Positions 17,801 through 20,800 of a stretch of DNA of 45,560 bases are shown piece after piece. The first letter of the stretch is position 1. Every line of letters starts with the position of its first letter. Source of the stretch: Escherichia phage ev243. Location: sequence record NC_049955.1; one strand, 5' to 3'. The position numbers are program-made.

Positions 17801-20800
17801 AGCGCGCGTTATCTTGGTACGGCACTGTACTGGATAGCCGCCAGTATCAATATCAAACCGGGCCATGATTATTATTTTTACGTTCGCAGTGTGAACACCG
17901 TTGGCAAATCGGCATTCGTGGAGGCTGTCGGTCAGCCGAGTGATGATGCATCAGGCTATCTGGATTTTTTCAAAGGCGAGATAGGGAAAACCCATCTGGC
18001 TCAGGAGCTGTGGACGCAGATTGATAACGGTCAGCTTGCGCCTGACCTGACTGAAATCAGGACGTCCATAACGGATGTCAGCAATGAAATAACACAGACC
18101 GTCAATAAGAAACTGGAAGACCAGAGTGCAGCGATCCAGCAGATACAGAAGGTTCAGGTTGATACAAATAATAACCTGAACAGCATGTGGGCAGTGAAGC
18201 TGCAGCAGATGCAGGACGGACGCCTTTATATCGCGGGTATCGGTGCCGGTATTGAGAACACCCCTGACGGCATGCAGAGTCAGGTGCTGCTGGCAGCAGA
18301 CAGGATTGCGATGATTAATCCTGCGAATGGCAACACAAAGCCGATGTTTGTTGGTCAGGGCGATCAGATATTCATGAATGAAGTGTTCCTGAAACGCCTG
18401 ACGGCCCCCACCATTACCAGCGGCGGTAATCCTCCGGCATTTTCCCTGACATCAGACGGGAGACTGACGGCGAAAAATGCGGATATCAGTGGCAGTGTGA
18501 ATGCGAACTCAGGAACGCTCAACAATGTCACGATTAACCAGAACTGTACGATTAAGGGCATGCTGGAGGCGACCCAGGTCAGAGGAGATTTCGTTAAAGC
18601 TGTATCAAAAGCCTTCCCGAAAAAAGTCGGTACGTGGGGTAACACGGAAACACCAAACGGTACGGTTACAGTCACCATCAGCGATGATCATAACTTTGAC
18701 CGCCAGATTATTATTCCGCCCATTATTTTTAACGGTATAGCGTATGACGATCCGGGGAGCGGAAATAACCCAGGAGGCACGCGATACACGGGTTATGGTT
18801 TTGAAGTTCGCAAAAACGGCGTATTAATCGCATCCAGAGAAACTAAAGGGGCCATTCCCGGTAGTTACAGTGCAGTTATTGATATGCCGAGTGGCAGGGG
18901 AAGCGTCACTCTGGAGTTTAAGATTTTCCAGAAAGGCAATCAGGGGGCAGGCAATATCACCGACTGTACGGTGATTGTGACCAAAAAAGCCGCTTCCGGC
19001 ATCAGTATTCGTTGAAATATTTATAACCCCAATAAAGGGCGTCAGGAATGACGCCTTTTTTATTGCAGAAAAGCGAGAGGTAATTATGCGTAAAGTTTGT
19101 GCAGCAATTTTGTCCGCAGCCATTTGTCTGGCCGTATCCGGTGCGCCTGCATGGGCGTCTGAACATCAGTCCACGCTGAGCGCGGGGTATCTTCATGCCT
19201 CGACGAACGTCCCCGGCAGTGATGATCTGAACGGGATTAACGTGAAATACCGTTATGAGTTTACGGACACACTGGGGCTGGTGACGTCATTCAGCTATGC
19301 AGGAGACAAGAATCGCCAGCTGACCCGTTACAGCGATACCCGCTGGCATGAAGATTCCGTTCGTAACCGCTGGTTCAGCGTAATGGCGGGGCCGTCTGTG
19401 CGCGTGAATGAATGGTTCAGCGCGTATGCGATGGCGGGTGTAGCTTACAGCCGTGTGTCGACTTTCTCCGGGGATTATCTTCGCGTAACTGACAACAAGG
19501 GGAAAAAGCACGATGTGCTGACCGGAAGTGATGACGGTCGCCACAGCAACACGTCTCTGGCGTGGGGGGCTGGCGTGCAGTTTAACCCGACCGAATCCGT
19601 GGCCATTGATATTGCTTATGAAGGCTCCGGCAGTGGCGACTGGCGCACTGACGGTTTCATCGTGGGTGTCGGTTATAAATTCTGATTAGCCAGGTAACAC
19701 AGTGTTATGACAGCCCGCCGGTTCAGGCGGGCTTTTTTGTGGGGTGAATATGGCAGTAAAGATTTCAGGTGTACTGAAAGACGGCACAGGAAAACCGGTA
19801 CAGAACTGCACAATCCAGCTGAAAGCAAAACGTAACAGCACCACGGTGGTGGTGAACACGCTGGCCTCAGAAAATCCGGATGAAGCCGGGCGTTACAGCA
19901 TGGACGTTGAGTACGGGCAGTACAGCGTTATTCTGTTGGTGGAGGGATTCCCGCCGTCACATGCCGGGACCATTACCGTGTATGAAGATTCTCAACCCGG
20001 TACGCTGAATGATTTTCTCGGTGCCATGACGGAGGATGATGCCCGTCCGGAGGCATTGCGCCGTTTTGAGCTGATGGTGAATGAAGTGGCACGTCATGCC
20101 GGAGCGTCATCACAGAGTGCAGCGGCGGCAAAGAAATCCGAAACGGCAGCAGCCTCATCGAAGAATGCGGCGAAAACCTCAGAAACGAATGCAGCTAACA
20201 GCGCACAGGCGGCAGCGGCCTCGCAGACTGCATCGGCAAACTCCGCGACAGCAGCCAAAAAATCAGAAACCAGCGCGAAAAATAGCGAGACAGCCACAAA
20301 GGCCAGCGAAAAAAACGCAAAATCCAGCCAGACGGCAGCGAAAACCAGTGAGACGAATGCCAAAGACAGTGAAGCCAACGCAAAGGTGAGCGAAACAGCG
20401 GCGGCGAACTCGGCGAAAGCATCGGCAGCAAGCCAGACGGCAGCAAAAGCAAGTGAAGATGCTGCCAGAGAATACGCAAACCAGACAGCAGAGCCGTACA
20501 GATATGTTTTACAGCCGCTGCCGGATGTGTGGATACCCTTTAATGATTCGCTGGATATGATTACGGGCTATTCTCCGGGTTATAAAAAAGTGAAGATTGG
20601 TGATAATGTGGTTCAGGTTGCCAGTGATAAACAGGTTAATTTCAGTCGCGCATCAACGGCAACATATATCAACAAATCTGGCGAACTGAAAACGGCGGAA
20701 ATTAATGAGCCGCGATTTGAGTGTGATGGCCTGCTTATTGAGGGACAAAGAACGAACTTCTTCCAGAACAGTACAGACCCTTCGAAGTGGAATAAGTCAA

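What the first reader, a model, noticed from the sequence alone, without database searches (positions are those of the whole stretch)
19037..19740. lom is a self-contained moron bracketed by two intrinsic terminators, with a divergent N-terminal two-thirds
Seen: strong terminators immediately before (19037-19064) and after (19712-19740) lom; the protein keeps the Lom C-terminal strands but differs from my recollection of lambda Lom in its N-terminal portion, which carries the surface loops. Inference: an exchanged allele of a virulence-associated Ail/Lom outer-membrane protein.
Basis: partly seen in the sequence, partly recalled or inferred. Interest (0 to 1): 0.4.

Follow-up and report, generated by a model that had tools for sequence, protein, structure and literature searches.

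The report
Common 434-type lom cassette between terminators
This is the ordinary, very widespread "phage 434-type" version of the lambda-family outer-membrane protein gene lom, sitting as a small add-on cassette between two transcription terminators; it is real, already annotated in other phages, and not new.

Summary
A GC hairpin plus T6 lies before it (19038-19064) and after it (19712-19739). It is only 45-47% identical to lambda Lom, yet its last 25 residues are identical to lambda's.

None of this is new. The same cassette, with both terminators annotated, is in phage 434 and mEp460. It occurs in 4088 of 5426 complete E. coli genomes. Lambda's own allele is the rare one.

- The divergent part is codons 1-172 (86%), not two-thirds.
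- Against lambda, the divergent block starts about 1 kb upstream and includes J's receptor-binding end, which is 96% identical to 434's (434 uses OmpC).
- No promoter fits inside the bracket: only 21 nt separate the first terminator's T-tract from the ATG. So "self-contained" is not supported.

New support for moron status: eight related loci lack lom and read J, hairpin, T-tract, stf. This places the cassette ends (about 19065-19737) in the two T-tracts.

One lead: PDB 9wso holds lambda Lom together with maltoporin (LamB). Lom alleles might therefore mask the receptor used by the linked J, but J and Lom classes do not pair one-to-one.

The parts
18015..19015 (+). 3' third of J (whole gene 15518-19015), including the receptor-binding C-terminus. 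This is the left part of the block that differs from lambda.
   Evidence: The window is 95.6% identical to lambda up to 18014, then 76% for 18184-18571, then shows no DNA similarity. The last 130 aa are 96% identical to phage 434 J. Phage 434 uses OmpC through J (PMC3509688).
19038..19064 (+). Intrinsic terminator-like hairpin (7-bp stem, GGAA loop) plus T6-ATT, just after J. A hairpin of this kind is present in every Lom allele class examined and in the eight lom-less relatives that keep the J-hairpin-stf junction.
   Evidence: dG -17.3, z -5.7. Covariation. Annotated as a terminator in 434 and mEp460. Retained in lom-less loci. The A-rich 5' flank also makes it fold on the minus strand.
19065..19737 (+). 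The lom cassette as an insertion/deletion unit: ribosome-binding site, lom, 3' untranslated region and its own terminator hairpin. The ends are ambiguous by about 2 nt inside the two T-tracts.
   Evidence: Loci L296, L307-L312 and L327 read ...GCCTTTTTTATT|TGTGGAGTGAATATGGCAG (stf). That joins the window's 19064 to about 19738.
19075..19081 (+). Shine-Dalgarno-like GAGAGGT, 4 nt before the lom ATG.
   Evidence: Sequence. Conserved in all allele classes. An RBS is annotated at this position in phage 434.
19086..19685 (+). lom CDS, 199 aa. Signal peptide residues 1-24 (AWA|S), then an 8-stranded Ail/OmpX-type barrel.
   Evidence: Pfam PF06316, 1-199/199, E 1e-122. PHROG 108 'Lom outer membrane protein'. 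AF2 strand pattern at pLDDT 59. Foldseek top hits OmpX 1qj9 and Ail 3qrc.
19225..19283 (+). Conserved island inside the divergent part (GINVKYRYEFTD, strand b2). It is used as an intragenic recombination junction.
   Evidence: 85% identical to lambda DNA. P0076, P0078 and P0080 join a type-3 N-terminus to the 434-type remainder here.
19602..19685 (+). Last 27 codons plus stop (b7-L4-b8). Shared nearly identically, codons included, by the 434-type, type-3 and lambda-type alleles. This is the right-hand mosaic junction.
   Evidence: 93% aa, 91% nt, and 84% identical codons, against 42%, 54% and 48% upstream..
19712..19739 (+). Intrinsic terminator-like hairpin (8-bp stem, 7 GC pairs) plus T-run, 11 nt before the stf ATG.
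   Evidence: Conserved in three Lom classes. Annotated as a terminator in 434 and mEp460.
19750..21813 (+). Side tail fibre gene stf, downstream neighbour. Its 5' ~250-390 nt are shared with lambda and with most related loci.

Best explanation
Window 19086-19685 is the common 'phage 434-type' allele of lom. It encodes a secreted, 8-stranded Ail/OmpX-family outer-membrane barrel.

The gene is a ~673-bp accessory cassette (about 19065-19737) holding a ribosome-binding site, the ORF, a short 3' untranslated region and its own intrinsic terminator. It sits immediately after the intrinsic terminator that follows J, inside the lambdoid late operon between J and stf.

The cassette has no promoter of its own.
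- Inferred from lambda biology: it is made mainly late, when Q-modified polymerase from pR' reads through both hairpins on its way to stf.
- From the lambda literature: it is also made at a low level in lysogens, from a start site that has not been mapped here.

Its difference from lambda Lom is ordinary lambdoid mosaicism. Against lambda, the divergent block runs from about 18015 (J's receptor-binding end) through lom codon 172. The last 27 codons, the second terminator and the stf 5' end are a shared 'linker'.

Among wild phages, the intergenic stretch plus first hairpin plus lom 5' part exchanges as a unit. The left junction is at J's last codons.

The protein's variable positions are concentrated in the signal peptide and in the outward-facing L1/L2 region. 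That pattern is expected of a surface protein.
For: Family and fold.

Terminators. Both are annotated in OL657226 (phage 434) and JQ182728 (mEp460).

Allele identity and spread:
- 96-99.8% DNA identity to many phages, including 434, lambda h434 imm21, cdtI, mEp460 and Stx phages.
- 167 phage records at 80% protein identity or more, then a gap down to about 46%.
- At least 597 IMG/VR stretches.
- Protein clusters of 24,859 and 6,993 members.
- 4088 of 5426 complete E. coli genomes, median 2 copies.

Mosaic junctions.

Exchange unit: the intergenic stretch and hairpin type follow the Lom class, not the J class. J1 with 434-type Lom and J1 with type-3 Lom diverge right after the J stop codon.

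Presence/absence.

No promoter.

Literature: lom is transcribed in lysogens and strongly late (PMC1151598; PMC9836094; PMC12366544). Lom is listed among moron products (PMC3594210).
Against: - No transcription data for this phage. Read-through by Q-modified polymerase and lysogenic expression are carried over from lambda.
- Promoter absence rests on consensus scans only. A non-canonical promoter, or one inside J, cannot be excluded.
- The AF2 model is of modest confidence (pLDDT 59), so strand and loop limits are approximate.
- GC content (55-56%) does not set lom clearly apart from its patchwork surroundings.
Confidence: 0.88

Rival explanations
1. Receptor-mask reading. Lom is a superinfection-exclusion or anti-readsorption protein that binds the receptor used by the linked J tip. 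Lom alleles would then diverge together with the J receptor-binding domain: lambda Lom with LamB, and this 434-type Lom with OmpC.
For: - PDB entry 9wso holds both 'Outer membrane protein lom' (lambda sequence) and maltoporin. J's C-terminal region (lambda residues 766-1132), when searched, did not return 9wso.
- Overexpressed lambda Lom blocks lambda-vir but not T7 (PMC12366544).
- lom lies next to J. Against lambda, the divergent block covers the J receptor-binding domain plus most of lom.
- The window's J end is 96% identical to 434's, and 434 uses OmpC.
- Sampling on J class: J0 gave 78/78 434-type Lom, lambda-type J gave 10/10 lambda-type Lom, and J1 gave mostly type 3.
Against: - Pairing is not one-to-one. 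The 434-type Lom, with identical L1/L2 loops, follows three J classes.
- J1 is followed by three Lom classes, or by no lom at all.
- The two genes are adjacent, so association is expected from linkage alone.
- No binding or exclusion data exist for this allele.
- No match in PADLOC.
- According to PMC12366544, lysogens do not make enough Lom to block lambda-vir.
Confidence: 0.2
2. Classical reading only. This is a lysogenic-conversion adhesin or serum-resistance factor of the Ail/Rck/PagC kind, whose loops diversify under host immune or adhesion selection. The terminators serve to insulate a prophage-expressed gene.
For: - Family membership.
- Weaker matches to the Rck and OmpX models.
- Lambda Lom promotes adhesion to buccal cells (Vica Pacheco 1997, cited in PMC3594210).
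- Polymorphism within the allele class is highest in the signal peptide, L1 and the b3/L2 region.
- Loop cassettes are shuffled: GDKNRQLTR versus NAEDEQKTH.
Against: - Scores for the Rck and OmpX equivalog models are far below their cut-offs (115 vs 258, and 99 vs 176).
- No own promoter was found.
- The literature reports that expression rises strongly late in infection, which an adhesin does not need.
Confidence: 0.35
3. The hairpins are not there mainly as terminators for lom. The first is simply J's terminator or an RNA 3'-end stabiliser. The second arrived with the cassette or arose by duplication of function. In that case the 'bracket' is incidental.
For: - The first hairpin is kept in lom-less phages, where it alone separates J from stf.
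- Similar hairpins follow other late genes, for example at 6113 and 7177.
- stf, an essential late-operon neighbour, lies downstream of both hairpins, so they must be read through in late transcription.
Against: - In allele exchanges the first hairpin's sequence type travels with the Lom class rather than the J class.
- Both hairpins have textbook terminator form, with T6 tracts.
Confidence: 0.3
4. The N-terminal divergence from lambda arose by fast in-place evolution of one lineage rather than by exchange.
For: Surface loops of outer-membrane proteins do evolve fast. Identity to lambda is lowest in L2 (0%) and L3 (17%).
Against: - There is an abrupt step in nucleotide and synonymous-codon identity at codon ~173.
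- Barrel strands b1 and b3 are as divergent as the loops.
- Allele classes are discrete, with almost nothing between 80% and 47% identity.
- Chimeric alleles exist.
- The same allele sits behind different J ends.
Confidence: 0.03

Closest known systems
Phage 434 gene CPT_434_22 'Ail/PagC/OmpX porin' with its two annotated terminators (OL657226); also mEp460_019 'Lom protein' (JQ182728)
   Same: Same 199-aa allele class, and the same J-terminator-RBS-lom-terminator-stf layout. DNA is 96.2% (434) and 96.8% (mEp460) identical over window 18950-19800. The J receptor-binding end is also the same (96%).
   Different: A few substitutions only. The first hairpin stem differs by two compensated pairs: GGCGTCA/TGACGCC here against GGCACCA/TGGTGCC in 434.
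Lambda Lom (NP_040601, 206 aa; solved in PDB 9wso together with maltoporin)
   Same: Same family, same genomic position, same last 25 residues, same downstream terminator and same stf start.
   Different: Only 42% identical over residues 1-172, with an 8-residue shorter L1. Lambda's upstream hairpin is weaker: 6 bp, -9.7 kcal/mol, z -1.0. The lambda type is rare: 9 IMG/VR loci, all about 100% identical to lambda.
OmpX (E. coli, 1qj8/1qj9) and Ail (Yersinia pestis, 3qra)
   Same: Same 8-stranded barrel with a shared C-terminal ...GYxF. The sequence search gives E 1e-18 to 1e-17, and these are the top Foldseek hits.
   Different: Only 24-30% identity. Lom has longer L2 and L3 (gaps in the alignment). 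It scores below the NCBIfam equivalog cut-offs for OmpX and Rck. It is phage-borne.
Morons as defined for HK97/HK022 (Juhala et al. 2000; summarised in PMC3594210)
   Same: It is extra DNA relative to close relatives, with sharp ends, and it has its own terminator. The lambda homologue is expressed from the prophage.
   Different: No promoter is detectable inside the cassette. There is no clear GC contrast with the surroundings.
Receptor-blocking proteins encoded next to the receptor-binding protein gene (Cor of phi80/N15/HK022; Llp of T5). This comparison rests on my own knowledge.
   Same: An outer-membrane protein gene directly beside the tail-tip specificity gene. For lambda Lom there is an anti-lambda phenotype on overexpression and a structure with the receptor LamB.
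   Different: Cor and Llp are lipoproteins, not barrels. Nothing has been shown for this allele.

Membership tests
Ail/Lom family (Pfam PF06316; PHROG 108) | Full-length profile match above the curated cut-off | tested here: met
   PF06316, 1-199 of 199, 407.7 bits against a cut-off of 23. phrog_108, 1-199 of 199, E 1e-110.
Ail/Lom family (Pfam PF06316; PHROG 108) | Sec signal peptide, eight antiparallel strands, C-terminal aromatic residue | tested here: met
   The sequence reads MRKVCAAILSAAICLAVSGAPAWA|SEHQ and ends ...GVGYKF. AF2 gives a helix at 2-18 and eight strands, at pLDDT 59 only. Foldseek hits OmpX and Ail with E 3e-9 to 2e-8.
Ail/Lom family (Pfam PF06316; PHROG 108) | Outer-membrane localisation; adhesion or serum-resistance phenotype | not testable with these tools
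   Known only for lambda Lom, Ail and Rck, from the literature.
Lambda Lom allele (near identity to NP_040601) | Near identity over the whole length | tested here: not met
   45% identical by BLASTP and 47% in a global alignment. Only residues 173-199 are about identical.
Rck / OmpX equivalogs (NCBIfam NF011777, NF006917) | Score above the equivalog cut-off | tested here: not met
   115.4 against 258, and 98.9 against 176.
Moron (accessory transcription unit in a phage operon) | Present in some genomes and absent in otherwise collinear relatives, with sharp ends | tested here: met
   Eight loci have J-hairpin-T-tract-stf with no lom. The junction lies inside the T-tracts.
Moron (accessory transcription unit in a phage operon) | Own terminator | tested here: met
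   Hairpin 19712-19733 plus T-run. Conserved in three allele classes.
Moron (accessory transcription unit in a phage operon) | Own promoter | tested here: not met
   Only 21 nt lie between the cassette's left end and the ATG. There is no sigma-70-like site on the + strand from 18727 to 19085, and only background-level weak sites further upstream in J. Consensus scans cannot exclude an unusual promoter.
Moron (accessory transcription unit in a phage operon) | Base composition unlike the neighbours | tested here: inconclusive
   lom is 55-56% GC. The J end is 45-51% and the stf 5' part is 53-56%. The whole region is a patchwork.
Intrinsic (factor-independent) terminators | GC-rich stem-loop directly followed by a T-tract; stem kept by compensatory change | tested here: met
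   For the upstream stem, 5 of 7 pairs change on both sides and 0/500 shuffles reach the observed score. The downstream stem is nearly invariant, so it is uninformative.
Intrinsic (factor-independent) terminators | Measured termination, and read-through under Q | not testable with these tools
   Needs Term-seq or in vitro transcription.
Receptor-masking exclusion proteins (lambda Lom-LamB, Cor, Llp) | Allele specificity matched to the linked receptor-binding domain | tested here: inconclusive
   The association is strong but not one-to-one, and it is confounded by adjacency.
Receptor-masking exclusion proteins (lambda Lom-LamB, Cor, Llp) | Binds the phage's receptor and lowers adsorption | not testable with these tools
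   Only lambda Lom has a structure with maltoporin (9wso) and an overexpression phenotype.

The most novel reading that the evidence does not exclude
Lom alleles are receptor masks matched to the neighbouring J receptor-binding domain. Lambda Lom binds LamB (PDB 9wso), and this 434-type Lom would bind OmpC, or whichever receptor J0/J2-type tips use. The J-end plus lom block would then be a co-inherited 'host-range plus self-exclusion' module. That would explain why most E. coli genomes keep one or more copies.
Probability: 0.2. Interest if true: 0.55.

Novelty: already known. Interest (0 to 1): 0.14.

Why it matters
As it stands this matters little. It is a correct reading of a textbook locus in its commonest allelic form, already annotated elsewhere.

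Two by-products have some value:
- The lom-less junctions show cleanly that lom plus its terminator is an insertion/deletion unit whose ends lie in the two terminator T-tracts, and that the unit carries no promoter.
- A solved Lom-maltoporin structure exists, and J-class and Lom-class are strongly though imperfectly linked. Together these make an allele-specific receptor-masking role directly testable with simple plating assays.

Tried and rejected
- A single-sequence AF2 model was useless (pLDDT 40). It was replaced by a 20-sequence alignment model.
- Liu et al. 2013, the ribosome-profiling paper on lambda, is not held, so there is no direct look at lom start sites.
- No paper describing 9wso was found.
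- PADLOC gave no hit.
- An Rfam gathering-score search found nothing at this locus.
- Promoter scans at two stringencies found nothing usable. I also checked by eye TATAAC at 19022-27 and TTGCAG at 19063-68; neither has a partner hexamer at a workable spacing.
- Chance hairpins were rejected on shuffles and covariation.
- In-place divergence was rejected on the codon-identity step.
- Strict J-Lom co-inheritance was rejected, because the same Lom loops follow three J classes.
- The window itself has no identical record. The best is phage 2G7b, at 95.5% identity over 93% of the first 25 kb.
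Full report
**What is at the coordinates**

The + strand carries these features in order:
- the end of J (15518-19015);
- a hairpin GGCGTCA-GGAA-TGACGCC (19038-19055) followed by TTTTTTATT;
- a GAGAGGT ribosome-binding site;
- a 199-codon ORF (19086-19685);
- a 26-nt spacer;
- a hairpin AGCCCGCC-GGTTCA-GGCGGGCT (19712-19733) followed by a T-run;
- 11 nt later, the ATG of the side tail fibre gene stf (19750).

Folded as RNA, the first element gives -17.3 kcal/mol (z -5.7; 0 of 200 shuffles as good). The second gives -18.6 kcal/mol (z -2.8; 2 of 200). In a scan of my own, only four + strand sites in the whole 45.5-kb window combine a clean GC hairpin with a T5-6 run, and these are two of them. 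The lenient version of that scan found 20 sites against about 6 in Markov simulations.

**The protein**

The ORF matches Pfam Ail_Lom (PF06316) end to end, 1-199 of 199, E 1e-122. It also matches PHROG 108 'Lom outer membrane protein'. It scores far below the NCBIfam equivalog cut-offs for Rck and OmpX.

It begins with a typical signal peptide (…APAWA|SEHQ) and ends in …GVGYKF. An AlphaFold model from a 20-sequence alignment is of modest confidence (pLDDT 59). It shows a signal helix and eight long strands. Its best structural matches are OmpX (1qj9) and Yersinia Ail (3qrc, 3qra).

**Comparison with lambda**

Against lambda Lom (NC_001416, 18965-19585) the protein is 45% identical.
- Residues 1-172 are 42% identical in protein and 54% in DNA. 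Where the amino acid is the same, the codon is the same only 48% of the time.
- Residues 173-199 are 93% and 91% identical, with 84% identical codons.
- The near-identity continues through the second terminator and into the first ~250-390 nt of stf.

This abrupt step is a recombination junction inside lom, not a gradient of constraint. On the left, the window is 95.6% identical to lambda up to 18014, and similarity then decays and disappears. So against lambda the divergent block is about 1.6 kb. It includes J's receptor-binding C-terminus, the first terminator and 86% of lom, not lom alone and not two-thirds of it.

By predicted element, identity to lambda is:
- lowest in L2 (0%), L3 (17%), b1 (23%) and b3 (21%);
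- highest in b2 (88%), b7 (82%), and L4 and b8 (100%).

Three of the four outward loops lie in the divergent part, but barrel strands diverge too.

**It is a known, very common allele**

The 851-nt region is 96-99.8% identical to many deposited phages. These include phage 434, lambda h434 imm21, cdtI, mEp460 and numerous Stx phages. In phage 434 (OL657226) and mEp460 (JQ182728) both hairpins are already annotated as terminators.

- By tblastn, 167 phage records hold a protein at least 80% identical. Below that almost nothing appears until about 46%.
- IMG/VR holds at least 597 copies.
- Protein clusters for this allele have 24,859 and 6,993 members, all from E. coli or Shigella.
- The 716-nt cassette is found at 80% coverage or more in 4088 of 5426 complete E. 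coli genomes, with a median of 2 and up to 14 places per genome.
- The lambda-type allele appears in only 9 IMG/VR loci, all about 100% identical to lambda.
- A third class (207 aa, 61% identical to lambda, 48% to the window) and a fourth also occupy this position.

The window's allele is the norm. Lambda's is the outlier.

**The terminators across relatives**

All Lom classes have a hairpin plus T-run between J and lom, with different stem sequences. Over 14 distinct variants, 5 of the 7 stem pairs change on both sides (for example G-C/U-A, G-C/C-G, A-U/C-G). 94.9% of cells pair, against 81% in shuffles (0/500), and against 31-52% when the partner is slid. That is good evidence the stem is selected.

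The downstream terminator is nearly invariant in three classes. It is therefore conserved but uninformative for covariation.

**Is it a moron?**

I sampled IMG/VR on the J receptor-binding end rather than on Lom. This turned up eight loci (L296, L307-L312, L327) with no lom. They read J stop, intergenic stretch, first-type hairpin, TTTTTTATT|TGTGGAGTGAATATGGCAG…(stf).

- The left part matches the window up to 19064, and the right part from about 19738.
- The insertion/deletion unit is therefore about 19065-19737: RBS, lom, 3' UTR and second hairpin. Both ends lie in the terminator T-tracts.
- This meets the 'more DNA with sharp ends' and 'own terminator' criteria for morons (PMC3594210).

It does not meet 'own promoter'. 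The unit has 21 nt before the ATG. The tool's scan finds no + strand promoter-like site anywhere from 15000 to 23396. A laxer scan finds only background-density weak matches well inside J, the nearest being TTGACC-19-CATTAT at 18696-18726. GC content (55-56%) is not distinctive in this patchwork region. 'Self-contained' is thus not supported.

**How it most likely works**

Shown here:
- the anatomy above;
- that stf lies downstream of both hairpins.

Inferred from established lambda biology:
- late transcripts from pR' carry Q-modified, terminator-resistant polymerase;
- that polymerase must pass both hairpins to reach stf and tfa, so lom is made in bulk late.

The literature reports strong late expression and also transcription in lysogens (PMC9836094; PMC12366544; PMC1151598). 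Without Q, the first hairpin would stop stray transcription leaving J, and the second would end whatever enters lom. The origin of lysogenic lom transcripts remains unmapped here.

**How the alleles move**

- When the same J class (J1) is followed by 434-type or by type-3 Lom, the sequences are alike up to the J stop codon and differ from there on. So the intergenic stretch and first hairpin travel with lom.
- The right junction is the shared lom 3' end, second terminator and stf 5' end.
- Within the gene, the conserved GINVKYRYEFTD stretch (19225-19283) serves as a further junction. P0076, P0078 and P0080 carry a type-3 signal peptide, b1 and L1 on a 434-type body. The L2 segment comes in two forms, GDKNRQLTR and NAEDEQKTH, that reassort.
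- Among 64 distinct 434-type proteins, polymorphic sites are densest in the signal peptide (71%), L1 (60%), T1 (60%) and b3/L2 (57%). They are sparsest in b6 through b8.

**What the protein is for**

The classical view is that Lom is a lysogenic-conversion adhesin (Vica Pacheco 1997, cited).

A newer line points to a role in phage exclusion:
- Overexpressed lambda Lom protects against lambda-vir but not T7. The authors propose superinfection exclusion or prevention of wasteful readsorption (PMC12366544).
- PDB entry 9wso contains both lambda Lom and maltoporin, lambda's receptor. J's C-terminal region, when searched, did not return 9wso. I found no paper for this entry.
- The window's J end is 96% identical to phage 434's, and 434 uses OmpC (PMC3509688).

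This raises the idea that Lom alleles match the linked J's receptor. I tested for association:
- Sampled on J: J0 (window/434 type) gave 78/78 434-type Lom. J2 gave 74/74 434-type. J1 gave 55 type-3, 10 434-type, 7 type-4 and 7 lom-less.
- Lambda-type J gave 10/10 lambda-type Lom.
- Stx1_499 pairs J1 with type 3.

The link is strong but not one-to-one. The window's exact L1/L2 loops occur behind three J classes. The genes are adjacent, so linkage alone predicts association. I rate this reading at about 0.2.

**Verdict**

It needs four corrections:
- there is no own promoter;
- 86% of the protein is divergent, not two-thirds;
- the block that differs from lambda includes the J receptor-binding end;
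- this allele is the common one.

Everything essential is already in public annotation. Novelty: already known. Interest is low.

Noticed in passing
PDB 9wso (found with window:19086-19682 and with E. coli lamB, L152:3972-5309): A solved entry holds lambda Lom (2 chains) together with maltoporin of the same sequence as in the J-LamB entry 8xcj. This implies a Lom-LamB complex. No paper for it was found in the library.
   Followed up: partly
L296, L307-L312, L327 (about 1880-1960 in each): Lambdoid loci that lack lom altogether. J is followed by one hairpin terminator and then stf directly, with the junction inside the T-tract. L368 differs: its hairpin is cut after GGGCACCAGAAATGGTG and unrelated sequence follows.
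   Followed up: partly
P0076, P0078, P0080, P0112 (alignment A3): Chimeric Lom proteins. A type-3-like N-terminus (signal peptide, b1, long L1) is joined to a 434-type body at GINVKYRYEFTD. The L2 segment GDKNRQLTR versus NAEDEQKTH reassorts independently, giving cassette-like loop shuffling.
   Followed up: partly
window 19750-21813 (stf): The 688-aa side tail fibre matches lambda and nearly all of the 80 related loci only in its first ~250-390 nt, then diverges. It has a long Ala/Ser/Lys/Thr-rich repetitive stretch (about residues 120-250), and AT skew rises to 0.7 around 20150-20450.
   Followed up: no
window 15518-19015 (J): J is 1165 aa, against 1132 in lambda and 1137 in phage 434. The C-terminal 130 aa are 434-like, and the N-terminal ~830 aa are 95.6% lambda-like at the DNA level. 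So J itself is a mosaic with an extra ~28 aa relative to 434 somewhere in 18015-18620.
   Followed up: no
window 31615-31673 (-): This is the only Rfam hit at gathering score: the lambda cIII thermoregulator element (RF01804, 88.5 bits). It fits a lambda-like early-left region.
   Followed up: no
window 1-25000: No deposited phage is identical. The best is Escherichia phage 2G7b (95.5% identity over 93%). The window coordinates of J, lom and stf are within ~100 nt of lambda's, so the window probably starts at cos.
   Followed up: partly
window 33956-33990 (both strands); also 6113 and 38769 (+): Other clean hairpin plus T-run sites. The one at 33956/33975 scores on both strands, so it has a bidirectional terminator shape. 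The sites at 6113 and 38769 have T5-6 tails like the two lom terminators.
   Followed up: no
L141 (IMG/VR 2671180353_000009): My ORF finder placed a J-like end and a Lom match about 1.5 kb upstream of the position the locus table gives for Lom (2501-3097). This hints at two J-end/lom units in one contig, or at a mis-picked match.
   Followed up: no
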